Positions 12,558 through 62,830 of a stretch of 64,000 bases of DNA are shown piece by piece. The stretch is taken from IMG/VR virus record IMGVR_UViG_3300038679_000051, positions 32,001-96,000 of that record. One strand, 5' to 3'. Source of the stretch: a virus (Duplodnaviria > Caudoviricetes). A program made the translations under genes and the position numbers. Positions within the stretch are counted from its first letter, which is position 1. Each line of letters begins with the position of its first letter. The notes under the pieces are model-generated. The model was given only the letters and a program-made list of their open reading frames with translations, did not search any database and was not told where the DNA came from.

Positions 12558-13175
12558 CTAACCAATAACGATGTGCTCAATGAGTAATTCTTCGTCTTTA
12601 TTTTTCGACTCATGTTCTTTCTTCGCCGCCCTCGCCTCCTGTAAGGAACAGAAGACATTGCCATTGTATATGAAAGCTCGCTTAATTTCGCTCACGTGGC
12701 CAACCAACATTTGTCCAACTATCCCTCTTAATTTCTCATCTCTGATATGCCCAAGCGCGTCATTATTTTGTTTTACTGCTGCCAGACAGATTTCTGGCGT
12801 CTGTTCTTTGACGTATTCAAGTGCCGAACCATCCCATTGCACTGCTGCTATACACATTTCTGGCGTCTGCTCTCTGACATATCGAAGTGCCCAACCAATT
12901 CGTTGCACTGCTGCTATACACATTTCTGGCGTCTGTTCCTTGACATATTGAAGTGCATTACAGTCTTCTCGTACCGCCGTTATGCATATTTCAGGAAATT
13001 GTTTATCTAAATGTTTAAGTACATCACACCAGAAGGAATATAAAGACACTTTATCATTCAATAATTGCTCAACGATCATTTCGTCCTCCATGTTTTTATG
13101 ATTATCATCAATCTTCCTCACTGCCTGGATCACGTCATTCAATTGTTCTTTAGTCACCTCAGAGAGCCAATGCAT
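12558..13175 (-). CDS. MHW-cap / DUF4116-repeat protein 1
   Basis: MHWLSEVTKEQLNDV cap plus about 3.5 repeats of AVxxxGxALxYVKEQTPExCxA. Confidence 0.85.
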   Translation of the reverse strand: MHWLSEVTKEQLNDVIQAVRKIDDNHKNMEDEMIVEQLLNDKVSLYSFWCDVLKHLDKQFPEICITAVREDCNALQYVKEQTPEMCIAAVQRIGWALRYVREQTPEMCIAAVQWDGSALEYVKEQTPEICLAAVKQNNDALGHIRDEKLRGIVGQMLVGHVSEIKRAFIYNGNVFCSLQEARAAKKEHESKNKDEELLIEHIVIG

Positions 13176-13211
13176 GTTTTATCTCCTTGCACATCAAATC
13201 ACACCGATAAT

Positions 13212-14523
13212 TCAGTACAAATCGTCCACTCCCCGTTCCCATTGCGCTTGTTTTTCAACAAAACCTTTATCACCTCCAATGCGTTCGAGCATGCTTGCCG
13301 ATGATTTAAGATAACCGGCGGTAAAGTCCAATCTGCTTGATCCGCCTACTCCAGTTGGCGGACATCCTGGATAAATGTGCTGTTCAAATAACGAATGACA
13401 AGTCCTGTCGAGACCTACGGCAATTTTGTATAATTCTTCTATAGTTTCGGTAGACACATCAACAAGATCTCCGGCAGCACCAATCCGTTCAAGCATGCCC
13501 GCCGCTGATCTCAGATAATGAACGGTCCACGCCAACTCGTTTGTTCCAGTTACCCCAGTCGGTCCTATCGCTTGTTTGAAGGAGGTATTGAATAGTGCCT
13601 CGCAAGTGTCATTGACTTTTTTAGCGGTTGGGTATAATTCTATTCTGACTTTAACAACCAATTCATGCTCGCTTAACATGTCTTAACCCTCCAAAATTGC
13701 TGCATTCTTCTCATTTTTTAATACTGGTTCCGTTGTCGTCAATGTTTTATCTGAGAATTGCATTCCGTATGTTTTCTATATGTTGATCTAACTCAGCAGG
13801 AGGGATGTCCCAACTCCGGATTTGACCATTCACACAGACGAGTGCAGTAATTTCACCAACATTGTAAGTCTCAACATATGCATATGTTTTATTTGAGGGT
13901 GTGGTGAATGATATCGCTACGCCTTCTTGTACACTTGCTAAGACGTTAGTCCAAGGGAACGTTTTCTCGTACGCAGACATGATTGTTCTCTTTGCTAAAT
14001 CGACCGCAATTATATTTGGTGCTTCTGACCCATATCCATCCCAATCACGTTCTAATTTTAACATGTCATCTAATGATTTTAATGCGGCGATCTTATTTCG
14101 TTCGTCCATATGTCACCTTCCTATTGTTTTAAGATTATCAGTAACCTGCATGGCGAAATCATTAAGCGCATGTTTGAAAAAATTGTTCATGCCGGTTAAG
14201 AGTGCTGCTCCAGCACCATTGCGGATGACCTCCTGCATGGTTTCTTCAACTTTTGCATGATTGTCATCCAGCCATTTTCTCAACAAAATGTCCATTCGTT
14301 CTTTCATCAAATTTGACACCAATTCATGAGCGAGCGGTGGTAAGATCTTAGTTTCGCTCCAAGAAGAACTTTGAGTCCTTCTCTCATTAAAGAATAGTTC
14401 TTCCATGCTGCGTGTGATCAACTTCATGATGTCCTCATCGCTTAAACAATCCCCGATGGAGGCTCTAATCCGGTCTTTCATTCGTTGTTCGAACGTCGCA
14501 GTCGCAGTTAATTCATCGGCCAT
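13212..14523 (-). other. Three hypothetical genes (13212-13679, 13747-14109, 14113-14523)
   Basis: Co-oriented ORFs with RBSs. 13212 has an internal duplication (GPTGV...YLRSAAGMLERIG / PPTGV...YLKSSASMLERIG); 13747 has a DWDGYG motif. Confidence 0.6.
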
Positions 14524-14698
14524 GATTTGTCTCCTCAAAAGAATCGTTGGTAACAACGCGGACAGACGTGACGCGTCCTATCCGTTTTCACCGTATATCT
14601 AACCCGCCTGAACGGTCTCCCACACATCTCGCATTTGCTGTGTCTTATTTCGTCATATGTAATAAATACAAACAAAATTGACATTGCTATAAAAGCGA

Positions 14699-15403
14699 CT
14701 AACATGAGGGTTCTGCTCCTATCCCTGCTTTTCTCAATGATGTACGAAGCTTTTCATTCTTGACGAATTCAAATGCCCGACCATTTTGTTTTATTGCCGC
14801 CATACATATCTCTGGTGTCTGTTCTATGACATATTTGAGTGCATAACCGTCTTGTTTTACTGCTGCCATGCATATTTCTGGCGTCTGCCCTTTGTTGTTC
14901 GCAGAACATTTAACATATTCAAGTACTGGGCCATGTCGTTTTACTGCCATCATACACATTTCTGGTGTCTGCTCTTTGATCCATTGAAGTGCCCGACCAT
15001 TTTGTTTTATTGCCGCCATACATATCTCTGGCGTCTGTTCTTTGACAAAATGGAAACAGTGGACGAATTCATCCTGCTTCACTGCTGCCATACATAATTC
15101 AGGCGTCTGTTCTTTGACATATTCAAGTGCCCAACAATTCTGTTTTACTGCCGCTAAACATAATTCTGGCGTCTGTTCTTTGATAAATAAGAGTGCATGG
15201 CCATTCTGTTTTACTGCGGCCATACAAATTGCGGGGAATTGTTTATCTAAATGCGCAAGCGTCTCATATAAATCTATGTCATCATCCAGTAATTTCTTGA
15301 CAATTTTTTTGTCTTTCATTGAAGCATGGACATCATCTATGCTTCTTACGGCTCGAAACACGTCCTGCAACTGTTTATCGGTCACTTCCATCATCCAATG
15401 CAT
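14699..15403 (-). CDS. MHW-cap / DUF4116-repeat protein 2
   Basis: MHWMMEVTDKQL cap plus about 6.5 repeats; one repeat carries a CSANNK insertion. Confidence 0.85.
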   Translation of the reverse strand: MHWMMEVTDKQLQDVFRAVRSIDDVHASMKDKKIVKKLLDDDIDLYETLAHLDKQFPAICMAAVKQNGHALLFIKEQTPELCLAAVKQNCWALEYVKEQTPELCMAAVKQDEFVHCFHFVKEQTPEICMAAIKQNGRALQWIKEQTPEMCMMAVKRHGPVLEYVKCSANNKGQTPEICMAAVKQDGYALKYVIEQTPEICMAAIKQNGRAFEFVKNEKLRTSLRKAGIGAEPSC

Positions 15404-15415
15404 GTTCTATCCTTT

Positions 15416-16375
15416 TCATTCATCATCTGCGATGGCTTGTGCCGTTGCTCGTATAAATTCATCTGCAAATAAACCAGCCCGACGGACTGAAAACAATTCT
15501 GATTCTTTGTCTTTAGATATTATAGCAATGGCGAATAACAAATGATCTATGAGGTGCGTCATTTGTTTGAGATTTTCAAATCTCACATCATCCTCGTTCG
15601 TTTCACCAACCGGATTGATGGGTCCGACCAACTTATTAACGACTTTGTTCAAATTAATGTCGTTTCCCATTATCAGCTCCTTCCAACGGTACGTAATGTT
15701 TATAATTTGCCTTTAACAATGCCATTATCAGCTCCTTCCAACGGTACGTAATGTTTATAATTTGCCTTTAACAATGCCATTATCAGCTCCTTCCAACGGT
15801 ACGTAATGTTTATAATTTGCCTTTAACAATGCCCGTAAAGCAGTTTTCTCCAGACTGTCGCGGTTCCTCTGCGTGCATCGCAAAGCACCGTCAATGCCGA
15901 ATGCAAATCCATCCATAAAAATGCGAGCATCATACCAATTTTTGAATTTAAAATCATTGATATATACGAATCCATTGTCAATCCTTATGGTTGACTTAAA
16001 CATAAGACATGTCTTGCGACACAATTCTTCGTCAACGTCGCGTGGCATTGGGTCCAACATCATTTTGCGTGGTTTTTCATTCATGTTTTGAATTCTTCTT
16101 TATCTTGCTTTCGTTCATGTAAATCAATGCAAAGTCGCTTGCCGCCATCCAACATCATCAACAGCATTTCCACTGTCCAATTCAGACACGCATTCTGGAC
16201 AGCAGACTCTGCCATTTCTAATGGCCCAACCCAGACTCTGGACAAGCTCTATAAAGCCTGTCTTTTTATATCCCGATCGTTGTACCCATACGCTGCATCG
16301 AGCACACCAAATTGTATATTCGATAGTTATTGCATGATTATATCGTTTCATGTCTGCTCTAGACATTCGTATCAA
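15416..16375 (-). other. Three hypothetical genes (15416-15670, 15755-16084, 16124-16375)
   Basis: Co-oriented ORFs lying between the direct repeats. Confidence 0.55.
15667..15833. repeat. Perfect 3 x 55-bp tandem repeat spanning a gene end, RBS and ATG
   Basis: Unit ccattatcagctccttccaacggtacgtaatgtttataatttgcctttaacaatg starts at 15667, 15722 and 15777; no spacers. Confidence 0.95.
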
Positions 16376-16397
16376 CCTCTATCCTTTTCATCGGCTG

Positions 16398-22404: not shown

Positions 22405-22887
22405 TTAAGGTGTCAACGGCCTTTGTGCTTGTGCTAAACTAAATTTGCAAATTTTCTTAACTCTCCAAATAGGAAAGAATGCAAGCAATTTACCAATATC
22501 CAATTTAAATAGTCGGAGATCAACTTGTGAAAACAAATCATATTCAATCGATAATCGTAGTTCTGGAAGCCTACCTCCATATGAAGTTCCTAATTGTATA
22601 AAGAATTGTGTTGTTGCATTATTTGATATTCCATATTCTATAACTTGTTTTGAATATAGTTCATCGATCTTAATGATTTCCGTTCCAGTTCCAAAGTTTT
22701 CTGCTCCATATAACTCGATCACTGGTGTTATTTTAATGTTTTTTATAAGAAACGGGCCTGCATTTGCGATTAAACAAAAATAACCAATACAATTACCACT
22801 ACATTGACTTGAACAAAGATGGATAGTTGGACCAAACCAATGCTTCGTTTTAAGCAATAAATCAATCGCTGGTTCGTAAGTATTCAT
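22405..22887 (-). CDS. AT-rich hypothetical protein coupled to the R-M gene
   Basis: ATGA overlap with the R-M stop; same low GC as the R-M 3' end. Confidence 0.55.
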   Translation of the reverse strand: MNTYEPAIDLLLKTKHWFGPTIHLCSSQCSGNCIGYFCLIANAGPFLIKNIKITPVIELYGAENFGTGTEIIKIDELYSKQVIEYGISNNATTQFFIQLGTSYGGRLPELRLSIEYDLFSQVDLRLFKLDIGKLLAFFPIWRVKKICKFSLAQAQRPLTP

Positions 22888-26777: not shown

Positions 26778-27038
26778 TTACCACGTCAGTTTGGTGTTGT
26801 GTTTGTCCGTCGCCGTCATTATCTCGTCCGTCCGGTTTCTGCCGTCTTTTATCCCATCAACGAGCATTCGTAAAGATAATTCAATCACGCAGAGCAGTCC
26901 GTCCACGTCGGCAAGACATGCCAATTTATTGTCACCGAGATCAGGCCGGGGCGTTGGTTCACCTATGATTCTAATCCTTGGCGTAATCCACACGCCGTCC
27001 ATCTTGGGCAATTGTAATTGCCCGATGACAAGACCCAT
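26778..27038 (-). CDS. Hypothetical protein
   Basis: AAAGGAG RBS; TAATG coupling to the upstream gene. Confidence 0.55.
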   Translation of the reverse strand: MGLVIGQLQLPKMDGVWITPRIRIIGEPTPRPDLGDNKLACLADVDGLLCVIELSLRMLVDGIKDGRNRTDEIMTATDKHNTKLTW

Positions 27039-27550
27039 TATTGCTCCTTTCTTTGCGTTCGTTCCAAAAGACCAGCGGGTGCAAACCATTGCACAGGCAC
27101 TTGTTCGCATATTTCCTTCCTTAATTCCTTCCTTAATCTCTCGTCTTTGACATATTGAAGTGCATTGCTATTTTGTTTTATTGCTGCCATGCATATTTCT
27201 GGTGTTTGTTCTCTGACATATTCAAGTGCATGACCATCCTGTTTTACTGCTGCCAGACACATTTCCGGCGTCTGCTCCTTAACGTGATCTATCGTTCGAC
27301 CAGTGGTTACGCTCAGTGTGTATTTTCCGCCGCTAAGGAAATCCCAATCATCTTTCGTTATGGCTGCCATACAGATCTCAGGGAATTGTTTATCCAAACG
27401 TTTAAGTATCTCACAAAAATTTATTTCATCACTCAACAGTTTCTCGACAATTTCCTCATCCTTCATTTGTTCATAATCATTGTTTATCTTCCTTACTGCT
27501 TCAATTACGTCAGCTAATTGTTCCTTGCTTGCGCTCATCATCCAGTGCAC
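27038..27550 (-). CDS. MHW-cap / DUF4116-repeat protein 3
   Basis: GTG start, MHWMMSASKEQL cap, about 2.5 repeats, first one with an insertion. Confidence 0.85.
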   Translation of the reverse strand: MHWMMSASKEQLADVIEAVRKINNDYEQMKDEEIVEKLLSDEINFCEILKRLDKQFPEICMAAITKDDWDFLSGGKYTLSVTTGRTIDHVKEQTPEMCLAAVKQDGHALEYVREQTPEICMAAIKQNSNALQYVKDERLRKELRKEICEQVPVQWFAPAGLLERTQRKEQ

Positions 27551-33463: not shown

Positions 33464-33907
33464 CTATGGTAAAAGGGTTGTATCGGCCAATTTATCACCT
33501 CTTCTAATAGATGCACGAAGTTCTGTGCTTCTAATGAAACGGTGAGTGTTATCATTTTGTCTTACTGCTGCCAGGCATATTTCTGGCGTCTGATCCTTGA
33601 CAAATTGTAGTGCCCAACCATCTTGTTGTACTGCGGCCATACACAATTCTGGCGTCTGCTCCTTAATGCAATTCAGTGCATAACCATCTTGTCTTACTGC
33701 TGCCATACAAATTGCGGGGAATTGTTTATCTATGTTATTGCATATGTAATATAAATCTATTTCATCGTTTAATAATTTTTCGACGATCTCATAATCCGTT
33801 GTACTGCGTTCCATATTATAACCGAAAGCGCCGACGGCGGCACCATGCTTTACAATCTGGATTACGTCTTGTAATTGTTCTTTAGTTATATCCATCAGCC
33901 AGTGCAT
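33464..33907 (-). CDS. MHW-cap / DUF4116-repeat protein 4
   Basis: MHWLMDITKEQLQDVI cap plus about 2.5 repeats; third gene of a tandem trio. Confidence 0.85.
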   Translation of the reverse strand: MHWLMDITKEQLQDVIQIVKHGAAVGAFGYNMERSTTDYEIVEKLLNDEIDLYYICNNIDKQFPAICMAAVRQDGYALNCIKEQTPELCMAAVQQDGWALQFVKDQTPEICLAAVRQNDNTHRFIRSTELRASIRRGDKLADTTLLP

Positions 33908-33910
33908 TTT

Positions 33911-34663
33911 TTAACTCCTAGGCGGCACGTTCGCCGCCATATATTTAAGCGCTGGACCATATTGCTGCACCGCAGTTAAACATATTTCTGGCGTCTGTTC
34001 CTTGACATATTTAAGTGCCCCACCATCCTGTCGCACTGCTGTCATACATATTTCTGGTGTCTGATTCTTGACATATTCAAGCGCTCGACCATCTTGTTTT
34101 ATTGCTGCCATACATATCTCTGGCGTCTGACTCTTGACAAATTGCAGTGCCCAACCATTTTGTTGCACTGCTGCCATACACATTTCGGGTGTTTGCTCTC
34201 CGATGTATTTGAGTGCATGGCCTTGTTGTCTTATCGCTGCCATACGTATTTGTGCGCCATAGATGCCTTCTAATATCTGTCTTCTGACATCTTGGAGAGC
34301 ATAACCATTATCTTTTACTGCTGCCAGGCATATTTCTGGCGTCTGTTCTTTGACAAATTCAAGCGCATAGCCGTTCTGTTGTACTGCAGCCAGACATATT
34401 TCTGGTGTTTGTTCCTTGACAAGTCTGAGTGCATAACCATTTTGTTGCACGGCAGCCATGCAAATCGCTGGAAATTGTCTATTCATATGTCCCAAGATAA
34501 AATATAAATCTATCTTACCACATAACAATCTCTCAATTATGCCATGTTCCGATGTGTCTGTGATGACGGACCTATTTTCTGGAGACATAAGATCATAACC
34601 ATGCTTTGCAGTCTGGATTACGTCTTGTAATTGTTCTTTGGTTATATCCATCAGCCAATGCAT
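33911..34663 (-). CDS. MHW-cap / DUF4116-repeat protein 5
   Basis: Same cap plus about 7.5 repeats. Confidence 0.85.
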   Translation of the reverse strand: MHWLMDITKEQLQDVIQTAKHGYDLMSPENRSVITDTSEHGIIERLLCGKIDLYFILGHMNRQFPAICMAAVQQNGYALRLVKEQTPEICLAAVQQNGYALEFVKEQTPEICLAAVKDNGYALQDVRRQILEGIYGAQIRMAAIRQQGHALKYIGEQTPEMCMAAVQQNGWALQFVKSQTPEICMAAIKQDGRALEYVKNQTPEICMTAVRQDGGALKYVKEQTPEICLTAVQQYGPALKYMAANVPPRS

Positions 34664-35283
34664 TTTTTAACTCCCCACGTTTTGAATTCTTCTTTAAGAA
34701 CTGGATCTTTGATGTGTTTATATGTGCATGACATTGGGTGGCTTTGTTTCACTGCTGCCATACACATTTCTGGCGTTTGTTCCCTGACATACTTAAGTGC
34801 CCAACCATGTCGCTGTACTGCCACCATACATATTTCTAGCGTCTGTTCTTTGACATATCGAAGTACCCAACCATATTGTTTTACTGCTGTTATACATATC
34901 TCTGGCGTCTGATCCTTAACATATTGAAGTGCATGACCGTCTTGTTGTACTGCTGCCAGACATATCTCTGGTGTCTGTTCCTTAACATATTGAAGTGCAT
35001 GACCGTCTTGTTGTACTGCTGCCAGACATATCTCTGGCGTCTGTTTCTTGACACATTTAAGTGCTTTGCCGCTCACATCCTGTTTTACTGCTGCTATGCA
35101 GATTGCTGGAAATTGTTCATTCATGCTCTTACATACATAATGTAGATTTACCTCGTTGTTGAATAATTTCTCGATTATACGAACATCAGTAAGATTAGAG
35201 AGATTATGAGGCTTATAACTACGTTTCGCAGTCCGAATTACGTCTTGTAATTGTTCTTTGGTTATATCCATCAGCCAATGCAT
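34651..35283 (-). CDS. MHW-cap / DUF4116-repeat protein 6
   Basis: First 47 nt identical to those of protein 5; about 5.5 repeats. Confidence 0.85.
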   Translation of the reverse strand: MHWLMDITKEQLQDVIRTAKRSYKPHNLSNLTDVRIIEKLFNNEVNLHYVCKSMNEQFPAICIAAVKQDVSGKALKCVKKQTPEICLAAVQQDGHALQYVKEQTPEICLAAVQQDGHALQYVKDQTPEICITAVKQYGWVLRYVKEQTLEICMVAVQRHGWALKYVREQTPEMCMAAVKQSHPMSCTYKHIKDPVLKEEFKTWGVKKCIG

Positions 35284-35939: not shown

Positions 35940-38814
35940 TTATTTTAACGTAATGACGTCGTCCGACACCGTAATTCTGCGTCCTTTCACCAAGCGCATC
36001 AACGTATAATGAAAAGCCTCCATTTCATTGCGGCCTTTTGCCCAACGACCGGCGACCAATGACACTGGAACGGTGTTAGTTCCGTCTTGCATGCTACGCG
36101 AGATGACCTTGAATAACCTATCCTTGTCTGATACGGTTTGACTCTGAATCTTGCGACTCTTGCGGCCCCTGCGGCCCCTGCGGCCCCTGCCGTTCTCGCT
36201 CTTGCTTTTGTTCTTACCTCGTGTCCGTCTGGTCTGGCGCATTTCATCAACGTCGATGTTGATGTTGAGACTTGCCGCAATTTCATTGATTTCATTGAGA
36301 GCAGCGACATGTTTGCTCCGTTCGAGTTTCAGATCTTCCAGATTTTTCTTCAATTCAGCGATCATTTGCTTGTGCATCGTTCTTCTCCCTATCTTGGGCG
36401 TCTCGCGCCACATTTTGTGCGTTGAACGTCCACACGCTCAACGTTGTCGGCTTTTCTTTCGCGCCACATTTTGTTCAATGTCATCGATTAATGCATCCAT
36501 GCGCCTACATATTTGGCCATAATGAACTTTCATCCATTTTTTATCCAATTTCAGTGCATTTATCTGGCGTTTCGCATTCGCACTCTTAGGTAATTGATCG
36601 TAATTTACGAACGCATGTGATTCACGCGAAATGAGTCTAGCCCAAGCATCATATTTAGGTGATTTCATCTCCATACCTCGTTTTTAACGACATGGGTTGA
36701 ATTCGTAAATCATTTTCTCTTTTTGATTTTTATTGCGGTCCATCTACCATCGACATACTTAAACGGTCGATCGTGCCGTTCAGTGGTTACTGTGATCGTT
36801 GCATCTTCACATTTTGCCGAAATGCCGTCGATTTTTTCTACGCTGATGTTCTGCACTGCGAGCAATTCTTTTACTTGGTCTGGAAGCTTCTCGAACGTGA
36901 TCTCACCCATGGTCATCATCTCCCTTATCAAAATGTAATTGTTGATTTTAAGGTGCCGTTTCATCCAAACGTGCCTGATGTCAAAGAAATCAGTGGCCAT
37001 CTTAGCGTAGGCAATGCGTTCCGATTCATCCGAATGTTTAATTGATCGTCTACAAAACAATGCGCGTTCCTCAGCCATGTCCGCAAGATGTAAAATTATG
37101 TCATTGGCCTCGACCAATTTGTTTGATTTAAATAGATCCAATGCCGTGCGATGCATTAATGTCACGTCTTTCGTCCATACGTCCATCATGTTCATTGTTG
37201 ATTCTCCTAGGTTACGTTTATTAATACGTCTACATCAATCACTAAAAACAGAAAACGTCAAACTTTTTTCCGTCTTGTGTCACACACCTCAACTGTGACA
37301 TCGCCATGCTGCATGGTGACGACGCTGCCATGATCACCGATCATACATGAGTATTGACCGGGATGTCGTTTAGACAACAGATAAATCATGGCTTGATCCG
37401 GATGCATGCTGTCATTATGATTCTTATCAGAAATGAACATAAACTGTTTTGACGACGGAAAGATGTCAAGATATGTAATGTAATCGTCGTCGGTTTTGAA
37501 GATGATGCTGTGCAAATCGTCTGCCGACCAAATGCGATGCGACCCTAGTTTAAGTCCAATGCCAGTGCCCTCAAAATAGGTATTTAATATGAATTTTGTA
37601 AATCCGTCAAACGTATCAACGTCTTCGGCAACAATTTTGTTGAATTTTATCTTTTTGAGGTATTTCTCAAATGCATCACAATGTTTCATGTCTCGTGGTC
37701 GTGGTTTAATTATCTTCATAAGTAATGCATTTCTCCCCGCGTCTCTCAATGCGACGCATTTCGTCGCATATGTCCAAGGCCCTGTCGGCGGCGTCCAGAT
37801 AATCATAACCTTCAGCGATGGCCATGTCAAGTACTTTTCGTTGCAATGCTCTTTTAGCATGCTCTGAAAGCTTCATCCAATTCATGTGGATGTCTAAAAA
37901 TTTGTACATCTTCCTTTCTCTCTCTTTTGGGTCCGTTATGGCAGATGCCTGAATTTCATCTGGATCATATTCCATTTATTATCTCCTTTCAGTTGTTCTT
38001 GCACCGTCTTAGAAGGTGGTTCATCTAGGTCATCTTCTTTTTGATGGCTAATTGTTCACGTAATTGTTCCAATCGCAATAAGAAAATCAGACACGCACGG
38101 ACCATCATGTCCTGACCTCTGACTGTATTGTTTGCTTCATGATATGCTGCTGCATAACTACAGACGGCATATACTTCATCTTTCCCGTATGAATACAGTT
38201 CGTTGAGACGTGTCATGATCTGACTTCTTCGTCGATTCCAGATTTTCAGATTTTCGTATGGCGATTTGCGTGCACACAGAACGTATTCGAAAATTACCAG
38301 CCCCATTAATCTTCTGTCGGTCATCGTCGCTTGATATTTTTCATAATCAAACCAATGGTCTTCTATTGGATCTTTGATAACGACGCCGACTTCCCTTTCT
38401 TTGATTTCACACATCCAATCTGGATGATACGGTTCCGGTGCATCATATGCGACCGTATTTTGTTTCAGTCCGTCATACCACTCTTTGGTTGCATATTCAT
38501 GATTGAATCGACATTCGAAACAATAACATTGTCCTCTGATTCCAAACAAGGGATTGTCTGCCTGTGGCGTACCATATTCTCCAACGTAGATGCCACATTT
38601 GGTGCAATGCGTCGTCCGTTTGGCCATTCTATCGGATCTCGACATTTTTCACACCCTCAATCAGTTTTAGAGTCAATTCTACGCCGGACACGCGGATTTG
38701 TAACATGTCTGCCCTCCGACGTTCTCTTGGATTAGTGGAGAATTTTAGCTTCATTATTTCCGATTGCATTCGTCGTCGCACTGCGTTGATTGCGCTGATG
38801 ATTCTAGGATTCAT
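35940..38814 (-). other. Run of hypothetical genes (35940-36377, 36438-36674, 36710-37195, 37258-37860, 37706-37975, 38025-38645, 38629-38814)
   Basis: Co-oriented ORFs. 35940 has a coiled coil, a GRR tract (tgcggcccc x3) and a possible winged-helix C-terminus. Confidence 0.55.
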
Positions 38815-39377
38815 TGGGATTTCCTTTCTAGGAATTCCTTCTGGAGTCTTTTTCTGAGTTCAACGTCTTTGACATGATTGATTGCCGATCTGCCATGTCG
38901 TTTTACTGCTTCTCTGCACAATTCGGGTGTTTGTTTGATGAATTGCATCGCCCAATCACCGTCCGGACCTTCTATGGCCAATTTACACAATTCTGGCGTC
39001 TTCCTCTTCTCCTCTAAGTATGCTATCGCACCACCATTCTGTGTTATGGCCGCCCTATAGAGTTCAGGCGTCAGGTATCGCCGATGCACATTGCTTAATG
39101 CCATTCCATTTTGTTTTACTGCCATCATGCATAATTCTGGCGTCTGCTTCGGGACATATTTTATGTGTTGACCATCGGTCATAATTGCTGCCATACACAA
39201 TGCTGGAAATCGTTGACCTGGTCTTAAATTATCTATTAAAATATTCCAATTAATCTCGTCCTTAAGCAACATTTCTACTAAAACCGCATCGTCCATGTTC
39301 TCATACTCCTTATTTTTCTTTAATACTCGGAGTATGTCTTGTAACTGTTTCTTGGTCACTTCCATCATCCAATGCAT
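38811..39377 (-). CDS. MHW-cap / DUF4116-repeat protein 7 (more divergent repeats)
   Basis: MHWMMEVTKKQL cap plus about 4.5 repeats. Confidence 0.85.
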   Translation of the reverse strand: MHWMMEVTKKQLQDILRVLKKNKEYENMDDAVLVEMLLKDEINWNILIDNLRPGQRFPALCMAAIMTDGQHIKYVPKQTPELCMMAVKQNGMALSNVHRRYLTPELYRAAITQNGGAIAYLEEKRKTPELCKLAIEGPDGDWAMQFIKQTPELCREAVKRHGRSAINHVKDVELRKRLQKEFLERKSQ

Positions 39378-43760: not shown

Positions 43761-43790
43761 TATTCCTCCTTCGTGATTCGGAAACGTCAC

Positions 43791-48565: not shown

Positions 48566-48800
48566 TCTTCAGTCTCCTTAGATTCTTTCGTCTCATGCTC
48601 TTCACGCAGTTCGTCCAACAATCCCGTGATTTCATCATATGAAAATCCGGTCTTTCTAGCGAGTCGATACGTCAACTGATGATACTGATTGCCTGGCAAT
48701 GATTCCAGGGAATCAACCGGATCGTCACCAAGAACGTCAATCTTTTTCAATTCAGCGAGCATGACGTTCTTCTTATCAATCTTAGTCATTCTGTCTCCTT
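48551..48800. repeat. Direct repeat of RBS + MTKID start flanking gene 48562-48789
   Basis: atcaatctt(g/a)gtcattct...gtctcctt at 48551-48579 and 48775-48800. Confidence 0.7.
48562..48789 (-). CDS. Hypothetical protein
   Basis: AAGGAG RBS; starts MTKIDKK. Confidence 0.6.
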   Translation of the reverse strand: MTKIDKKNVMLAELKKIDVLGDDPVDSLESLPGNQYHQLTYRLARKTGFSYDEITGLLDELREEHETKESKETEE

Positions 48801-49474
48801 TTGGGGTTTGAACCAACGAGTATCTTGATCTTGAATTTTTTATTAACGTATTCAAGTGCCTCATTGTTCTGTTTTACTGCCGCCATGCACAATTCTGGCG
48901 TCTGCTCCTTAACGTATTCAAGTGCCTCACCATTTTGTTTTACCGCCGTCATACATACCTCTGGCGTTTGTTTTTTGACATATTTAAGTGCCCAGCCATT
49001 TTCTTTTACTGCTGCCATGCATATTTCTGGCGTCTGCTTTTTAACAAATTCAAGTGCCAAGCCATATTGTCTCACTGTCGCCATACAGATTTCTGGTGTC
49101 TGTTCCTTGACATGCTGAAGTGCATGACCATTTTGTTGTACTGCAGTCAGACATGTATCTGGTGTTTGTTTTTTGACATGCTGAAGTGCATGACCATTTT
49201 GTCTTACTGCTGCCATGCACAATTCTGGCGTCTGCTCCTTGACATATTCAAGCGCATAACCATTTTGTTTTACTGTTGCCATACAGATTGCGGGAAATTG
49301 TTTATCTATATTCTTGCATGTGGAATATAAATCTATTCCATCATCCAATAATTTCTTGACAATCGTTGTATCCTTCATCTGTTTATAATCATCAATCTTT
49401 CTCACTGCTTTGATTACGTCATTCAATTGTTCTTTGGTTACGGTCGTTATCCAGGCGTTCTTTCTCTTCTTCAT
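48782..49474 (-). CDS. MHW-cap / DUF4116-repeat protein 8 (decayed start)
   Basis: Cap reads NAWITTVTKEQLNDV; ATG overlaps the upstream TGA; about 6.5 repeats. Confidence 0.8.
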   Translation of the reverse strand: MKKRKNAWITTVTKEQLNDVIKAVRKIDDYKQMKDTTIVKKLLDDGIDLYSTCKNIDKQFPAICMATVKQNGYALEYVKEQTPELCMAAVRQNGHALQHVKKQTPDTCLTAVQQNGHALQHVKEQTPEICMATVRQYGLALEFVKKQTPEICMAAVKENGWALKYVKKQTPEVCMTAVKQNGEALEYVKEQTPELCMAAVKQNNEALEYVNKKFKIKILVGSNPKRRQND

Positions 49475-50115
49475 TGTAGTGCATAACCATCTTCTCGTAC
49501 TGCTGCCATACATATTTCTGGCGTCTGTTCTTTGATATCTTGAAGCGCCCAGCCATCCTGTTGTACTGCCGCCAGATATGCCTTCTTTTTAGTCATGGTC
49601 ATTGTTTTCACGTCAAAAACAAGACCATCATCATCAAACTTCTTTTTAGTCATGGTCATTGTTTTCACGTCAAAAACAAGATCATCATCAACAGTTCCGT
49701 TACATTCTTCCTCTTCCTTTACTTCTATTAATTCAATTAAATGTCGGTATTTTTTCGGTGTCTTTTTAATTACATCATCTTTATCATCCTCATAAATAAA
49801 CATCGTCGAATTAGCTACATCCCTTGGCCAACCAGCAAGCGTCAATAATTTAATCTTTAATGGCCATGCATATTGCTCAAGATAATCAAAGTTATTTTCT
49901 TTGATATCCATGAGAAACCTCGTTGAGTCGATTTTCAATTCCTCTAATATTGCTTCCATAATTTCATCATTGATTCTCATCTTAATGCATACTCCCTCTT
50001 CTTCGTCTTCTGGATCGTACGCATACCCCTTGTCGTTCTTCACGACGATGTCTTTTTCATACCAGATGCCACCGTCATCTGTCTCGGTGTCAAAATCGAA
50101 AATGTAGGTCATCAT
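49471..50115 (-). CDS. Acidic hypothetical protein fused to ~1.5 DUF4116 repeats
   Basis: C-terminus AAVQQDGWALQDIKEQTPEICMAAVREDGYALQ, preceded by a 57-bp in-frame duplication (LVFDVKTMTMTKKK x2). Confidence 0.7.
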   Translation of the reverse strand: MMTYIFDFDTETDDGGIWYEKDIVVKNDKGYAYDPEDEEEGVCIKMRINDEIMEAILEELKIDSTRFLMDIKENNFDYLEQYAWPLKIKLLTLAGWPRDVANSTMFIYEDDKDDVIKKTPKKYRHLIELIEVKEEEECNGTVDDDLVFDVKTMTMTKKKFDDDGLVFDVKTMTMTKKKAYLAAVQQDGWALQDIKEQTPEICMAAVREDGYALQ

Positions 50116-51853: not shown

Positions 51854-52387
51854 TTATGTGATTTTTGTGATCTCGATTTCGACCCTGAATTTAGTCTTAT
51901 CGATGAGATCAAACACTGTATCATTTCCTTGTGCTGCCGCCATGCACGTTTCTAGTGTCTGTTCTTTGACATATTTAAGTGCCGAACCGTCCTGTTGTAC
52001 TGCTGCCAGACAGATTTCTGGTGTCTGTTTCTTAACATGCTGAAGCGCATAACCGTTTTCTTGCGCTGCTGCCATACATATTTCTGGTGTCTGCTCCTTC
52101 ACATATTTTAGTGCCAAACCATTTTGTTGTACTGCAACTAAACACAATTCTGGTGTCTGTTTTTCGATGCATTCAAGTGCATAACTACGTTGTTTTACTA
52201 CTGCTATGCAGATTTCTGGAAATTGCTTGTCCAAATGTTTGAACACATTCAATAGATTTACTTCATCATTCATCAGTTTCTTGACAATCGTTACATCCTT
52301 CATTCGTTCATAATTATTGTTTATCTTCTTTACTGCTTGGATTACATCAGCCAACTGTTCCTTGCTTGCGTTCATCATCCAGTGCAT
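51854..52387 (-). CDS. MHW-cap / DUF4116-repeat protein 9
   Basis: MHWMMNASKEQL cap plus about 4.5 repeats. Confidence 0.85.
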   Translation of the reverse strand: MHWMMNASKEQLADVIQAVKKINNNYERMKDVTIVKKLMNDEVNLLNVFKHLDKQFPEICIAVVKQRSYALECIEKQTPELCLVAVQQNGLALKYVKEQTPEICMAAAQENGYALQHVKKQTPEICLAAVQQDGSALKYVKEQTLETCMAAAQGNDTVFDLIDKTKFRVEIEITKIT

Positions 52388-52767: not shown

Positions 52768-53535
52768 CTACCCATGGCATTCTCCTTTCCACATCCCTTG
52801 TGTGCTTCTTTCTATGCATTTGATGGCAGCTTCTGACATCACGTCATATCCGATTTCCTCGAATATTTGTGATTGTATGCTGGCATCCAAATAGGGCAGA
52901 CAACGAGGATTACATTTGACTGCCTTCATCGCTATGCGTAAATCCTTGATTGGTTCAAAACCTGACAGAATCTTTGGTGCATCTGTCGGTAAAAGAGAAA
53001 ACATGATGTCAAAAAGTTCAACGTTACTCATCATTACATAATGGCTTAGACAACTTATCATTTTGGGATATACGCGAGCAACCGTTGCGAGCATGGCACT
53101 GGGCAGATACTGAGATAAAACGAATGAATTGTTGATGAACAAATTCAACTCTGGATCATAGAGTGACGTAATGATGGCCACTCTTTCGAAGGATGGTTGA
53201 TTCTTTAGAATTTCTATGACCTTTATTAATCGTCCGTTTTTCGACATAGTCAACAAAAATTCTTTCGTAAATCTTTCAACTAAATGAATTGGTGCATGCT
53301 TGCACACCATAGCACGGGTATCCCGATGTGCGTACCATGCTGGATCGAACAATAATTCTTTAGTGCGTTCATTCTTAAGATATGGGTAGAGATCTTTTAT
53401 GGGGTAAGACATTAATCTTTTCAAACATGTGGCCGGATTCCATCGTGCCGTGTTTCCATTTACATTGTGCACGGCTTCGATGATGTCGTCTATTTCCTCC
53501 TTGGTGGCAGTTTCCAACCACTGTGAAACGTCCAT
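52768..53535 (-). CDS. Divergent MHW-cap homolog with degenerate helical repeats
   Basis: SQWLETATKEEIDDIIEAVHNV aligns by eye with MHWMTNASKEQLNDVIEAVRKF; C-terminal IAMKAVKCNPRCLPYL. Confidence 0.55.
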   Translation of the reverse strand: MDVSQWLETATKEEIDDIIEAVHNVNGNTARWNPATCLKRLMSYPIKDLYPYLKNERTKELLFDPAWYAHRDTRAMVCKHAPIHLVERFTKEFLLTMSKNGRLIKVIEILKNQPSFERVAIITSLYDPELNLFINNSFVLSQYLPSAMLATVARVYPKMISCLSHYVMMSNVELFDIMFSLLPTDAPKILSGFEPIKDLRIAMKAVKCNPRCLPYLDASIQSQIFEEIGYDVMSEAAIKCIERSTQGMWKGECHG

Positions 53536-56230: not shown

Positions 56231-56604
56231 CGACGTTCCCCTTTTGGTTGACAGTATTTGTCGATTACGCCCTTTAATTTATCTTTAGGCGTGGCCGTAA
56301 TTTTTGCAATCAATCCCGGATTTTGCCTCAACAACGACAACAGCATTCTAGCTTCTCTGCGACGATTGTTTTTCGCCTGTTTGCGACATTCTTTACACAA
56401 TTCGGATTGATAGAAACATGACGTGAACGATTCATGCTTCTTTTTGCATTTCTTGCAGATTAGCGTGCCAATCTGCTTGTTCGATTCTAAGTCGTATCTC
56501 AATGATCCGACGACGAAATGTGGATATTTCTCTTTTAATTCCGTTTCATCCATCCTGGCTGCGGCTACTCGTTCCAACAGCATCTGCATTTCTTTTTTGT
56601 CCAT
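56227..56604 (-). CDS. Zinc-finger protein (paralog of 57383-57667)
   Basis: KYPHFVVGS...NKQ...CKKC...ESFTS...CKECRK. Confidence 0.65.
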   Translation of the reverse strand: MDKKEMQMLLERVAAARMDETELKEKYPHFVVGSLRYDLESNKQIGTLICKKCKKKHESFTSCFYQSELCKECRKQAKNNRRREARMLLSLLRQNPGLIAKITATPKDKLKGVIDKYCQPKGERR

Positions 56605-57322
56605 TTTTCTCCTCCGTGTTCTCGATCCACGTTCTGATCATGCTGTTCAGATGTCTGTGTTCGTTTGGCATTATGCGTATGAATTCCGAAAATTCATCGA
56701 CGTACAGATCTCTTTTGTTGGCCATGTTTTCAGCAACTATCATTTGTGCTTCGAGCAGCGTTTGTTTGTCTTTGAACCGAAGTTTATGTAACAACCACGG
56801 CGATCGACTTTTTTTAATTGCGATCAATTTCATGTCATCACCCATGGCATAACCGTAGTCTAAGGGTAATTTTGGGTTAACGTTGATCGCGATGATTGTC
56901 AACTCCCTGATTTGTTCTTCCGTATAATTCAAATGCTTGCAACTATGCTTGCATTGATTTAGGAAATTACTGACACATTTTTCGGATGCGGCATGCATCG
57001 CTGCATGGCGGAATTCAAAATTATCTAATTCTGATGGGATTGTAATGTGACCTCTATTGACGTTCGTGTATGTCTGTAGAATCAATTCCGGCACTTTGCA
57101 TTTCATGTTATAAATCCATGTTCCATTTATGAGAGAATATTTTTTATGTCCAGTGTCGGCATGTTCAATCAAATTAGCCATCAATTTATGATCCGTCATT
57201 CGTAAGACGTTTTTGTCGACTTTTCGCATTGCTTGCAATATGTCTTCGACGATTTCCCGCGTCGCTAATGATGATGCAATAAATTCCTTGAACGGCATTG
57301 GTCTCCACTTCGGTTCATTCAT
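56546..57322 (-). CDS. Divergent MHW-cap homolog with helical repeats
   Basis: ATREIVEDILQAMRKVDKNVLRMTDHKLMANLI aligns by eye with VTKEQLNDVIQAVRKIDDNHKNMEDEMIVEQLL. Confidence 0.5.
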   Translation of the reverse strand: MNEPKWRPMPFKEFIASSLATREIVEDILQAMRKVDKNVLRMTDHKLMANLIEHADTGHKKYSLINGTWIYNMKCKVPELILQTYTNVNRGHITIPSELDNFEFRHAAMHAASEKCVSNFLNQCKHSCKHLNYTEEQIRELTIIAINVNPKLPLDYGYAMGDDMKLIAIKKSRSPWLLHKLRFKDKQTLLEAQMIVAENMANKRDLYVDEFSEFIRIMPNEHRHLNSMIRTWIENTEEKNGQKRNADAVGTSSRSQDG

Positions 57323-57341
57323 CGCTTCTCCTTCCAATGAG

Positions 57342-59332: not shown

Positions 59333-59343
59333 TTCTTCCTCCT

Positions 59344-60663: not shown

Positions 60664-60672
60664 TTCTTCCTC

Positions 60673-61471
60673 CTATCCGTTGTACGCCGTCTGACAATCC
60701 TCATCGCAGCATCGTTGCCCGCGTTCTGTCGGTTCAAACCAATTTCCACACCAATCACATTGTCGCGGATTTTGCCATGATGGACATCCGGTCTCATGAC
60801 AAAAAACGCCATTTATCATGACTGCTTCACAATCATCGCATTTCTTAACCTTCCGTGGCTTAATTCCGGGCATTCTCTCCTTTCTTGTAGTATGGATTGA
60901 CAAACGTTCCTCATTTCTGCAGGTAGCCAGAAATCCTATCCAATCACGAATGTGTTGAATGCTGTCCAAATCATGAAGATTCGTCTGAATTTCAAACTCA
61001 TCACCTTTCAATCTATAATGCATCCATACGTTTCCATTTTCATAAAAGATGATATAAACGTTCGCCAATGGTACGCCGAACGGCGATTCTAATTTAAATG
61101 ATGCCGTGGCTACTTGAGTGGCTACTTGAACGAATTTAATGCCCAAGTCTTTGGTCAATTCATCGAGGATTTTCTGATACATGGCCTCAATTTCCTGACG
61201 TTGGTCGTCTCTGCTTCTTCTTTTTGTCTGATTCATCTATGAATGGCATTACATTTCCACTGTTAATATCATCCTTGATGTTGATTTTTATATGGTGATC
61301 CATTAACCAATCCACCAAGAACAATAGACCAATCCACCAAGAACAATAGTCGCAATTCCATTCCTTTCCATTTACAGTAAAGCCACTTCTTGACTTCCTT
61401 GTGAAAACTATCTTAAATTCACGAATGTCCGGTTTTTGCTTCTTTTGCTTCTTTTGTTTTTTCATTTTCAT
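60673..61471 (-). other. Two hypothetical genes (60673-61182, 61187-61471)
   Basis: 60673 ends in a Cys-rich cluster (CDDC...CHETGC...CDWC...CCDEDC). Confidence 0.55.
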
Positions 61472-61499
61472 TCTCCTCTTTCTGCGTCCACGGAGCAGA

Positions 61500-61521
61500 C
61501 GACCATCAACATTGATGGTCG
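61500..61521. promoter_or_regulatory. 22-bp palindrome abutting the middle repeat
   Basis: CGACCATCAA-CA-TTGATGGTCG. Confidence 0.55.
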
Positions 61522-61548
61522 TCATTCCCTCAATTTCCTGACGTTTCT

Positions 61549-62160
61549 CTACTTCTTCTTTATGGAAAGTGATTCTATTTCAAATTTAGTTGTATCGACA
61601 AAATCTATTACCTCCGTCATATTTGCTGCAATTGCTGCATCAATCGCTGCAGTGCAAATTTCCAACGTCTGCTTTTTAACAAATTCAAGCGCCATCCCGC
61701 ATTTCTGCACTGCTGCCAGACATATTTCCGGCGTCTGCTTTTTTACATATTCAAGCGCCTGACCATTTTGTTTTACTGCCGCCAGACATATTTCAGGTGT
61801 CTGTTTTTTGACATATCGAAGTGCCCAACCATTTTCTTTTACTGCTGCCATACATATTTCCGGCGTCTGCTTTTTTACATATTCAAGCGCCTGACCATTT
61901 TGTTTTACTGCCGCCAGACATATCTCTGGCGTCTGATCTTTGACGAATTTAATTGTATAACCATTTCGTTGTACTGCTGCCATGCATATTTCAGGAAATT
62001 GATCGCCCAAATCATGGAGTACGCCCCACAAGCTTATTTCATTGTTCAACAATCTCTCTACAATCGTTTCATCCTTCATCTGTTTATAATCGTCAATCTT
62101 CTGCACTACTTGAATTACGTCGCTTATTTGTTTCTTGCTTGCGTTCGTCATCCAGTGCAC
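61549..62160 (-). CDS. MHW-cap / DUF4116-repeat protein 10
   Basis: GTG start, MHWMTNASKKQI cap plus about 5 repeats. Confidence 0.85.
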   Translation of the reverse strand: MHWMTNASKKQISDVIQVVQKIDDYKQMKDETIVERLLNNEISLWGVLHDLGDQFPEICMAAVQRNGYTIKFVKDQTPEICLAAVKQNGQALEYVKKQTPEICMAAVKENGWALRYVKKQTPEICLAAVKQNGQALEYVKKQTPEICLAAVQKCGMALEFVKKQTLEICTAAIDAAIAANMTEVIDFVDTTKFEIESLSIKKK

Positions 62161-62170
62161 GTTTTATCTC

Positions 62171-62830
62171 CTATGCCAGAATGCAGATCTTGGTCTTGAA
62201 TTTCCTATCAACATATTTAAGTGCATCACCATTTTGTCTTACCGCTGCCATGCATATTTCTGGCGTCTGTTCTTTGACATATTCAAGTGCTGCACCATTT
62301 TGTCGTACTGCGGCCATGCATATTTCTGGCGTCTGTTTTTTGACAAACCGAAGTGCATCACCATCTTGTTGTACTGCTGCCAGGCATATTTCTGGCGTCT
62401 GTTTTTTGACATATACAAGTACCCAACCCCATTGTTGTACTACTGCCATACATATTTCTGGCGTCTGTTCCTTGACATATTTAAGTGCATCATTATCTTG
62501 TTGTACTGCTGCCATGCATATTTCTGGTGTTTGTTCCTTGACGTGTTCAAGTGCTGCACCATTTTGTCGTACTGCCGCCATGCATATTTCTGGTGTCTGT
62601 TCCTTGACATATACAAGTACATGACCCCATTGTTGTACTGCTGCCAGGCATATGGCTGGAAATTGATTGTCTAAATGTTTAAGCACATCACTTAAAACCC
62701 GAATCTCATCATCCAATAATTTCTTAACGATCGTTTCGTCCTTCATCTGTTTATAATTGCCATCAAACTTTCTCACTGCTTCAATCACATCATTCAATTG
62801 TTCCTTACTTGCGTTCGTCATCCAGTGCAT
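62171..62830 (-). CDS. MHW-cap / DUF4116-repeat protein 11
   Basis: MHWMTNASKEQL cap plus about 6.5 repeats. Confidence 0.85.
   Translation of the reverse strand: MHWMTNASKEQLNDVIEAVRKFDGNYKQMKDETIVKKLLDDEIRVLSDVLKHLDNQFPAICLAAVQQWGHVLVYVKEQTPEICMAAVRQNGAALEHVKEQTPEICMAAVQQDNDALKYVKEQTPEICMAVVQQWGWVLVYVKKQTPEICLAAVQQDGDALRFVKKQTPEICMAAVRQNGAALEYVKEQTPEICMAAVRQNGDALKYVDRKFKTKICILA

What the first reader, a model, noticed from the sequence alone, without database searches (positions are those of the whole stretch)
12558..62830. Eleven dispersed paralogs with a conserved ~60-aa MHW cap and a variable array of 22-aa DUF4116-type repeats
All share the cap MHW[ML]xxxxKxQLxDVxxxV...FP.IC, followed by about 2.5-7.5 repeats of 66 nt (seen). 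DUF4116 is a repeat family of unknown function (established). A constant N-terminal module on a variable solenoid is the architecture of substrate adaptors such as F-box/ankyrin-type viral families. Inference: the cap docks on one shared partner (the adjacent AAA ATPase or a host protease/complex) while each array binds a different target, possibly as a modular anti-defence or host-takeover toolkit. About 6.7 kb of this window is devoted to the family.
Basis: partly seen in the sequence, partly recalled or inferred. Interest (0 to 1): 0.8.

Follow-up and report, generated by a model that had tools for sequence, protein, structure and literature searches.

The report
Jumbo-phage family of capped DUF4116 repeat proteins
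A 320-kb uncultured groundwater phage carries its largest gene family here: 11 copies in this window (16 genome-wide) of a small helical repeat protein with a rare, lineage-specific 55-residue head; the family is real and the head is new, but its function and any link to the neighbouring AAA ATPase remain unproven.

Summary
Eleven minus-strand genes at the stated coordinates share a ~55-aa N-terminal cap followed by 3-8 DUF4116 repeats of 22 aa (66 nt). The complete 320-kb phage genome holds 16 canonical members, three divergent cap-bearing proteins, one chimera and a relic.

The cap is not the generic end of DUF4116 solenoids. A cap-only profile finds 23 clusters among 1.84 billion proteins, always N-terminal and nearly always followed by DUF4116-type repeats. 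Ordinary DUF4116 proteins carry other heads, including a true F-box. The paralogs are old (synonymous sites saturated) and under purifying selection. Variation is concentrated at a few positions per repeat, one of them rich in aromatic residues. AlphaFold2 gives a confident alpha-solenoid with no close solved structure.

The proposed AAA ATPase partner is not supported:
- Only one paralog pair touches it.
- That pair is a cassette flanked by direct repeats of the AAA 3' end.
- The AAA family (Cdc48/p97-like, phrog_8638) is common in phages without DUF4116.
- One distant relative again places DUF4116 genes beside its AAA gene.

Best reading: a lineage-specific expansion of cytoplasmic binding proteins with a shared head, role unknown. 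This scan has reported DUF4116 gene arrays in other genomes before. This is a new variant of a known kind, of moderate interest.

The parts
12558..13175 (-). Paralog 1, 205 aa: cap, 4 repeat anchors, and a ~60-aa C-terminal extension
14699..15403 (-). Paralog 2, 234 aa: cap and 7 repeat anchors; one repeat carries the 18-nt in-frame CSANNK hairpin insert
27038..27550 (-). Paralog 3, 170 aa, GTG start: cap and 3 anchors, with a 16-aa insert in the first repeat
33464..33907 (-). Paralog 4, 147 aa, the shortest (3 anchors); first gene of a tandem triplet
   Evidence: the triplet's caps form a clade
33911..34663 (-). Paralog 5, 250 aa, 7 anchors; tandem triplet
34651..35283 (-). Paralog 6, 210 aa, 6 anchors, including two adjacent identical repeats; tandem triplet
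38811..39377 (-). Paralog 7, 188 aa, the most divergent canonical member
48782..49474 (-). Paralog 8, 230 aa from the likely start MKKRKNAW (no MHW), 7 anchors; its ATG overlaps the stop of 49471-50115 (ATGA)
51854..52387 (-). Paralog 9, 177 aa; this is the copy that was modelled (AF2 pLDDT 92.5, pTM 0.83)
61549..62160 (-). Paralog 10, 203 aa, GTG start; a 99.9%-identical metagenome contig has two repeats (132 nt) fewer here
62171..62830 (-). Paralog 11, 219 aa, 7 anchors; directly downstream of the AAA ATPase gene
49471..50115 (-). 214-aa chimera: unrelated N-terminal part and 1.5 DUF4116 repeats at the C-terminus, no cap
52768..53535 (-). 255-aa divergent member: cap-like N-terminus (cap HMM E 1.8e-7) on a non-canonical helical C-terminal part; homologue P0140 in another metagenome
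56546..57337 (-). 263-aa protein with a weak cap-like segment (cap HMM E 1.2e-4) and degenerate repeat-like stretches
62870..64000 (-). AAA ATPase gene; runs past the window end (519 aa as called in the near-identical contig). phrog_8638; AAA domain closest to Cdc48/p97 D2
62871..62911 (-). 3' end of the AAA gene; reference copy of a ~41-nt direct repeat bounding the paralog 10+11 cassette
61523..61563 (-). Second copy of the AAA 3'-end repeat, at the stop of paralog 10 and supplying RBS and ATG for gene 61187-61525
61180..61220 (-). Third copy of the same repeat, at the next gene junction

Best explanation
This is a lineage-specific expansion of small cytoplasmic alpha-solenoid binding proteins in the accessory (non-structural) arm of a complete 320-kb groundwater phage.

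Architecture: each member has three parts. (a) A ~55-aa N-terminal domain of five short helices, found only in this small phage lineage. (b) Three to eight 22-aa DUF4116 helix-turn-helix repeats. (c) One of two short C-terminal tails.

Evolution: the family grows and changes by whole-gene tandem duplication, gain and loss of 66-nt units, and cassette insertion at gene junctions.

Proposed mechanism (inferred, not shown): the conserved scaffold residues build a rigid superhelix. Positions 11-13, 15 and 18 of each repeat vary, and position 15 is rich in Trp/Tyr/His. They lie at the turn between the two helices and along the short second helix, and they give each paralog its own ligand-binding stripe. 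The shared head supplies a common function such as docking, oligomerisation or regulation. The proteins would then engage different host or phage targets during infection.

Shown: family, architecture, rarity of the cap, purifying selection, localisation of variability. Inferred: binding, target diversity, the role of the head.
For: Family and architecture:
- 11/11 window members hit PF13475, and there are 16 canonical members genome-wide.
- It is by far the largest paralog family of the genome, and no partner family is co-duplicated with it.

Fold:
- AF2 pLDDT is 92.5 and pTM 0.83. The protein is all-alpha; each repeat is a 10-residue plus a 6-residue helix, and the cap has five short helices.
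- The cap alone folds at pLDDT 78.

The cap is a separate, rare module:
- The cap profile finds 23 clusters among 1.84e9 proteins, always N-terminal.
- Relatives carry the same cap on diverged repeats (IKNPSEEVQLAAVKQNG type).
- Generic DUF4116 proteins have other heads, including an F-box.
- hhalign of cap against repeats gives E 0.43.
- Cap-like heads occur on non-canonical C-terminal parts, and one array has no cap.

Selection:
- In cap codons pS is 0.70 (saturated), pN 0.33, dN/dS about 0.3. Conservation is therefore at the protein level and the duplicates are old.
- Repeat position 15 has 3.27 bits of entropy; 36 of 65 residues there are W/Y/H, and pN/pS is 0.97. Position 18 has pN/pS 0.73. 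Scaffold positions are strongly constrained.
- Every paralog has a different signature at the variable positions.

Setting: the genes sit in a dense co-directional block of about 155 small genes, with ligase, an R-M enzyme, a deaminase and similar genes, and often with overlapping stops and starts.
Against: - No binding partner, phenotype or timed expression is known, and DUF4116 has no characterised member.
- The host is unknown.
- Conservation of a cap among paralogs follows from whole-gene duplication plus selection for a stable solenoid end, so it does not by itself show a shared partner.
- Most strongly conserved cap residues are hydrophobic or helix-capping (W3, L12, V15, I16, Y26, M29, D31, I34, L38). 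I could not map conservation onto coordinates.
- The aromatic residues at position 15 could be a structural ladder and not a binding surface, and the same position varies throughout DUF4116 generally.
- Evidence for expression is limited to short contigs in two RNA libraries, which could be carried-over DNA.
Confidence: 0.45

Rival explanations
1. The cap is only a lineage-specific structural N-cap. It shields the hydrophobic end of the solenoid and is inherited by all paralogs through gene duplication. It has no docking role, and any function resides in the repeat array alone.
For: - The cap has higher confidence in the full-length model (pLDDT 87-97) than alone (78), as expected if it packs on the first repeat.
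- Its conserved residues are mainly hydrophobic or helix-capping.
- A conserved C-terminal capping helix (V-K/R-D-P-x-L-R-x-E-I-K type) also exists and is shared with relatives P0141 and P0142.
- Its helix pattern resembles two further hairpins.
- The Atlas's nearest shapes are ARM-like FliG_C/MgtE_N domains at TM about 0.5 (a lead only).
- Earlier notes of this scan describe other DUF4116 gene arrays with their own fixed caps.
Against: - At 55 aa it is much larger than a capping hairpin, and it has no detectable sequence relation to the repeats.
- It occurs without canonical repeats: 83-aa P0135; a 161-aa protein with a sub-threshold ankyrin match; the 255-aa and 263-aa proteins.
- One array exists without it.
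- It is kept at about 35-45% identity between lineages whose repeats have diverged to about the same degree.
Confidence: 0.3
2. One reading: the cap docks all paralogs onto the neighbouring Cdc48/p97-like AAA ATPase (or a host protease). Each array would then deliver a different target for unfolding or degradation, as an F-box-like or p97-cofactor-like adaptor set.
For: - The AAA gene lies directly upstream of paralogs 11 and 10.
- Its AAA domain is closest to the Cdc48/p97 D2 domain (E 2e-55). From established knowledge, that is an unfoldase class that works through N-domain adaptors.
- In a distant relative (ENA contig L001, AAA 47% identical), a 356-aa protein with two DUF4116-like repeats sits directly upstream of the AAA gene, and a capped paralog lies 2 kb away.
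- An F-box plus DUF4116 protein exists.
Against: - Only 2 of the 16 canonical members are adjacent to the AAA gene.
- That pair is bounded by direct repeats of the AAA 3' end, as an inserted cassette would be, so the adjacency looks secondary.
- The AAA family (phrog_8638) occurs in Rhizobium, Rhodobacter, Pseudomonas and other phages, while tblastn finds DUF4116 in only five records of four other phages.
- In Rhizobium phage L338C no neighbour of the AAA gene is annotated as a repeat protein.
- With about one family member per 5 kb in this block, chance adjacency is likely.
- The C-terminus of the AAA protein (..KLRE) is not an HbYX proteasome-docking motif (sequence).
Confidence: 0.1
3. The cap is a targeting domain that loads the proteins into the capsid, so that they are ejected with the DNA. 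This would be like the T4 internal proteins, which share a capsid-targeting sequence on variable bodies.
For: A constant N-terminus on variable bodies in a polymorphic multigene family is the T4 IP/CTS pattern (own knowledge).
Against: - The cap is a folded 55-aa domain that AF2 packs on the solenoid, not a ~10-aa leader.
- There is no conserved L/I-x-E cleavage motif at the cap-repeat boundary: IVE/IVK at residues 34-36 varies.
- The genes lie in the accessory block with ligase, an R-M enzyme and similar genes, not among head genes, which I did not locate.
- No virion data exist.
Confidence: 0.08

Closest known systems
Pfam DUF4116 (PF13475) repeat proteins, including PHROGs 17056, 5925 and 31839 (all of unknown function)
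   Same: The same 22-aa repeat (QTPEIC.AAV.Q.G.AL.YVKE), with Pfam matches far above threshold in all members and PHROG matches. A predicted alpha-solenoid, as in PMC8078820. The same position after the conserved Gly is hypervariable.
   Different: The 55-aa MHW head is absent from generic DUF4116 proteins, which carry F-box, ankyrin or other N-terminal domains, or none. Here there are 16 or more short single-purpose paralogs in one phage.
F-box plus DUF4116 proteins (e.g. metagenomic P0045); by architecture also poxvirus ANK/PRANC proteins and giant-virus ankyrin 'accordions'
   Same: A constant docking-type module on a variable solenoid array, expanded into a multigene family in a large virus. 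P0045 shows that DUF4116 arrays are used in exactly this layout.
   Different: The cap has no F-box or PRANC similarity. The host is presumably a bacterium, without an SCF ligase. No partner of the cap is known.
Phage T4 internal proteins IPI/IPII/IPIII with a shared capsid-targeting sequence (own knowledge)
   Same: A shared N-terminus on divergent bodies, in a polymorphic phage accessory family.
   Different: The T4 CTS is a ~10-aa cleaved leader. Here the head is a folded 55-aa domain with no conserved protease site, and virion location is untested.
Lineage-specific expansions in jumbo phages, e.g. about 35 copies of a zinc ribbon in Bacillus phage G (PMC7824862)
   Same: A single small domain family amplified to tens of copies in one jumbo phage, with unknown but presumably host-directed roles.
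   Different: A different fold. Here each copy also varies internally in repeat number.

Membership tests
DUF4116 (PF13475) | Match to the Pfam model above the gathering score (24.9 bits) | tested here: met
   11 of 11 window members match, best E 1.2e-44. The genome-wide scan gives 61 matches, of which 58 pass the cut-off alone or with their neighbours in the frame.
DUF4116 (PF13475) | Tandem 22-aa (66-nt) units forming helix-turn-helix repeats of an alpha-solenoid | tested here: met
   Anchor spacing is 22 aa in most units. TRF finds period 66. The AF2 model has a 10-residue and a 6-residue helix per unit, pLDDT 92.5.
F-box / SCF substrate adaptors | An F-box (or PRANC) domain that binds Skp1 | tested here: not met
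   No F-box family is among the Pfam matches of any member. P0045 shows what a true F-box plus DUF4116 protein looks like.
Cdc48/p97 cofactors | A known N-domain-binding module (UBX, SHP, VIM, PUB etc.) or demonstrated binding to the ATPase | tested here: inconclusive
   No such Pfam domain was found in any member. Binding to the ATPase was not shown and cannot be decided with these tools.
T4-type capsid-targeted internal proteins | A short N-terminal CTS followed by a prohead-protease site (L/I-x-E), and presence in virions | tested here: inconclusive
   No conserved cleavage motif at the cap boundary, and the cap is a folded domain. Virion content is not testable here.
Viral multigene repeat-protein expansion ('accordion') | Many paralogs in one genome, with tandem duplicates, unit-number variation and relics | tested here: met
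   16 canonical members, divergent members and a relic. The tandem triplet is monophyletic. Repeat number ranges from 3 to 8. A 132-nt indel separates near-identical contigs, with an assembly caveat.

The most novel reading that the evidence does not exclude
The MHW head is a new docking domain that couples a panel of differently tuned DUF4116 arrays to one machine, most attractively the phage's own Cdc48/p97-like AAA unfoldase. The phage would then carry a programmable adaptor-unfoldase system for removing host proteins (defence or housekeeping), a bacterial-virus counterpart of F-box or p97-cofactor families.
Probability: 0.08. Interest if true: 0.85.

Novelty: new variant of a known kind. 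Interest (0 to 1): 0.42.

Why it matters
DUF4116 is a large repeat family with no known function, found in bacteria, phages, giant viruses and eukaryotes. This phage offers a natural panel of 16 short proteins with the same head and different arrays. It also offers variants with the head on other bodies and an array without a head, which is a convenient set for asking what the repeats bind and what the head does. If the head proved to be a docking domain, it would show that phages use adaptor families as eukaryotic viruses use F-box/ankyrin proteins. As it stands, the finding adds a new, very rare N-terminal domain and a well-documented case of lineage-specific expansion in a jumbo phage. It does not add a new mechanism.

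Tried and rejected
- Co-folding of the cap alignment (A4) with the 519-aa AAA ATPase returned 'no answer' (score 0.00, controls not run). This is neither for nor against binding.
- Structure searches found nothing significant:
  - Whole model: Foldseek PDB had no hit at E<=1e-3. VIA-align wide gave a best Z of 5.4, generic ankyrin/DARPin/alphaRep/PPR rows.
  - Cap-only model: Foldseek PDB gave nothing, VIA wide a best Z of 3.8, and the Atlas shape search no hit.
  - The Atlas by-structure listing of FliG_C/MgtE_N at TM about 0.5 and its feature scores of about 0.83 are leads only.
- Searches for relatives:
  - Megablast of 24 kb of the window against cultured phages: no match.
  - Cap patterns in IMG/VR and in JGI metagenome contigs: no confirmed relatives. 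One attempt failed for lack of a conserved stretch.
  - The look-up of P0123 was not on record.
  - The contigs of P0130, P0138 and P0141 were too short to give context.
- hhalign of cap against repeats showed no similarity, so I dropped the claim that the cap is two degenerate repeats. It remains possible structurally.
- The cap tree is largely unresolved.
- Repeat-number polymorphism between strains:
  - The 132-nt difference from contig Ga0435281_000002 is real in the assemblies.
  - Short-read contigs break at exactly these repeats, so it may be an assembly collapse.
- RNA-library contigs cover parts of the region, including 62005-62206 and 62625-62866.
  - Uncovered parts and depth cannot be interpreted, and DNA carry-over is not excluded.
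- The literature holds no functional study of DUF4116.


Full report
**Setting.** The window is bases 32001-96000 of a 320,399-bp virus record with direct terminal repeats, estimated complete, 41.5% G+C. Identical sequence is present in several groundwater and coal metagenomes. It has no megablast match among cultured phages. From about 5.4 kb onward nearly all genes are on the minus strand, in a dense block of about 155 small genes that extends past the window. Recognisable genes in or next to the block include:
- an NAD-dependent DNA ligase, a 1286-aa helicase-methyltransferase restriction-type enzyme, a radical-SAM-like protein and an AAA ATPase;
- a WGR protein and a dCMP-deaminase-like gene (precomputed Pfam, weak);
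- a tmRNA and a tRNA-Met.

**Check of the observation.**
- All eleven match Pfam DUF4116.
- Their repeats are 66-nt tandem units at the DNA level.
- The eleven N-termini align over about 55 residues, and W3, Q11, D14 and L38 are invariant.
- Three details need correction. Two copies use GTG starts behind the same RBS (GGAGATAAAAC). One copy has MKKRKNAW in place of MHW and starts in an ATGA overlap at 49474. The 'FP.IC' motif belongs to the first repeat, not to the cap.
- The family extends beyond the window. An HMM of the eleven finds 16 canonical members in the genome, all between 44 and 115 kb and all on the same strand.
- A cap-only HMM additionally finds three divergent proteins with a cap-like head on a different body: window 52768-53535, window 56546-57337, and genome 102808-103293. 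The last has a sub-threshold ankyrin match (Ank_2, E 0.002, below the cut-off).
- One member (genome 100339-101049) is an array without a cap. Gene 49471-50115 ends in 1.5 repeats. A 3' relic lies upstream of the member at genome 114267.
- This is the largest paralog family of the phage, and no second family is co-amplified with it.

**Is the cap the generic DUF4116 end?** It is not.
- The best full-length relatives of paralog 11 among 5.8 billion clusters cover only the repeat part. Those that cover more carry unrelated N-termini.
- Pfam confirms a true F-box on one of them (P0045) and ankyrin repeats on another.
- A profile of the cap alone, searched against 1.84 billion representatives, finds 23 proteins at E<=1e-3. 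One is a low-complexity false hit and several are this phage's own. The rest are small metagenomic proteins with the cap at the very N-terminus.
- In one group of these (heads beginning NEWINNC...), the cap is followed by clearly diverged 22-aa repeats (IKNPSEEVQLAAVKQNG.AI). The cap-plus-array architecture therefore predates the divergence of the repeats.
- Profile-profile comparison of the cap with a three-repeat profile shows no similarity (E 0.43).

**Structure.** AlphaFold2 on paralog 9 with the paralog alignment gives pLDDT 92.5 and pTM 0.83.
- Each repeat is a 10-residue helix (P3-Q12), a turn at N13-G14 and a 6-residue helix. The cap is five short helices.
- The cap alone folds with moderate confidence, pLDDT 78.
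- Neither model has a significant match among solved structures or in the Atlas. The nearest rows are generic solenoids.
- The only literature statement on the fold is a predicted alpha-solenoid (PMC8078820). No functional study of DUF4116 was found.

**Evolution.**
- Among paralogs the cap codons are saturated at synonymous sites (pS 0.70), with pN 0.33 and dN/dS about 0.3. The copies are therefore old and are kept by selection on the protein, not homogenised by recent conversion.
- In 65 regular repeats the scaffold positions are nearly fixed. Position 15, just after the Gly, has 3.27 bits of entropy, is W/Y/H in 36 of 65 cases and has pN/pS 0.97. Positions 18 and 13 come next.
- By helix position, the variable residues lie at the inter-helix turn and along the short helix.
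- Every paralog has its own signature at these positions.
- The C-terminal tails fall into two classes: a helical V-K/R-D-x-x-L-R-x-E-I/L-K type, also seen in relatives, and a V-x-K-K-F-K-I-K-I type.
- The tandem triplet 33464-35283 is monophyletic.
- A 138-kb JGI contig that is 99.9% identical differs by one 132-nt (two-unit) indel in paralog 10. Short-read contigs break at these repeats, so this may be an assembly effect.

**The AAA ATPase.** The gene at 62870 onward is 519 aa as called in the near-identical contig. It matches phrog_8638 over its full length, and its AAA domain is closest to the D2 domain of Cdc48/p97.

Evidence against its being the shared partner:
- Homologues occur in Rhizobium, Rhodobacter, Pseudomonas, Vibrio, Mycobacterium and other phages.
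- DUF4116 is found by tblastn in only five records of four quite different cultured phages, and there inside larger proteins without the cap.
- In Rhizobium phage L338C no neighbour of the AAA gene is annotated as a repeat protein.
Paralogs 10 and 11 therefore form a ~1.35-kb cassette bounded by direct repeats, and the adjacency to the AAA gene looks like the result of an insertion.

Evidence for a link:
- A 4.4-kb ENA contig from a distant relative carries a capped paralog and a 356-aa protein with two DUF4116-like repeats. Directly downstream of that protein lies an AAA gene 47% identical to this one.

With one family member per about 5 kb, chance adjacency is plausible, so I rate the AAA link at about 10%.

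**Expression.** Two groundwater metatranscriptome libraries contain short contigs identical to parts of 44-64 kb. They include pieces spanning the junction of paralogs 10 and 11 and the cap of paralog 11. These are contigs, without strand or level, and DNA carry-over cannot be excluded. This is a weak hint at most.

**Interpretation.** The facts fit a lineage-specific expansion of solenoid binding proteins. The scaffold, head and tail are conserved, and the specificity-determining positions and the repeat number are free to vary. Whether the head is a docking or effector module (about 40-45%) or merely a specialised structural cap (about 30%) cannot be settled without a conservation map on coordinates or experiments.
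- For modularity: its size, its lack of relation to the repeats, its occurrence on other bodies and the existence of a capless array.
- For the structural reading: the mostly hydrophobic nature of its conserved residues and the parallel conservation of a C-terminal cap.
- A T4-like capsid-targeting role is a minor rival.

**Comparison and novelty.** The repeats are ordinary DUF4116. This scan has already described DUF4116 gene arrays in a digester bacterium, small phages and a giant virus, and lineage-specific expansions are known in jumbo phages (PMC7824862). New here are the very rare 55-aa head, the size of the family in a bacterial virus (16 canonical members, and about 20 with the divergent forms), and the natural set of head and array combinations. 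I class it as a new variant of a known kind, of moderate interest.

Noticed in passing
window 7158-7541 (-) and 6779-6851 (-): The phage encodes a full-length tmRNA (RF00023, 151 bits; tag peptide AKENIFAVNARKGVAFAA) next to a tRNA-Met. These could help to identify the host.
   Followed up: partly
window 14892-14911 and 23932-23951; genome 102286 and 102502: An identical 20-nt hairpin-forming segment (TTGTTGTTCGCAGAACATTT, read as K-CSANN-K) sits in frame in three DUF4116 repeats of two paralogs and in the methyltransferase part of the 1286-aa R-M-type gene. A near copy (YSANNK) is in the paralog at genome 114267. It looks like a tiny in-frame mobile or recombination-derived insert.
   Followed up: partly
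window 62871-62911, 61523-61563, 61180-61220: The 3' end of the AAA gene, including a GAGG RBS and a stop/start overlap, is repeated at two further gene junctions. It bounds a two-paralog cassette and a single-gene cassette, and may be a recombination site for shuffling accessory genes.
   Followed up: partly
window 15667-15833: A perfect tandem repeat of 55 nt x 3.0 copies (100% matches) at the junction of two small minus-strand ORFs, just upstream of paralog 2's operon neighbour.
   Followed up: no
window 49582-49690: A 57-nt direct duplication (98% matches) inside gene 49471-50115 duplicates the peptide DD.LVFDVKTMTMTKKK just before its DUF4116 tail.
   Followed up: no
window 22884-26744 (-): A 1286-aa fusion of a ResIII/DEAD helicase and an Eco57I/MmeI-type methyltransferase (a type ISP/IIG-like restriction-modification enzyme) encoded by the phage.
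   Followed up: no
L001 (ENA contig KRAE22-1 scaffold_14150) 1-4420: A distant relative shares at least three genes with this phage: a capped DUF4116-like paralog, a homologue of window 43140-43790, and the AAA ATPase at 47% identity. It places a 356-aa protein with two DUF4116-like repeats directly upstream of the AAA gene.
   Followed up: partly
genome 115038-115160 (beyond the window): A 3' relic of a family member (..AAVRQDGQALKYVKDPALREEIK), preceded by stop codons, lies directly upstream of the paralog at genome 114267-115037. Its last codons supply the RBS of that paralog.
   Followed up: partly
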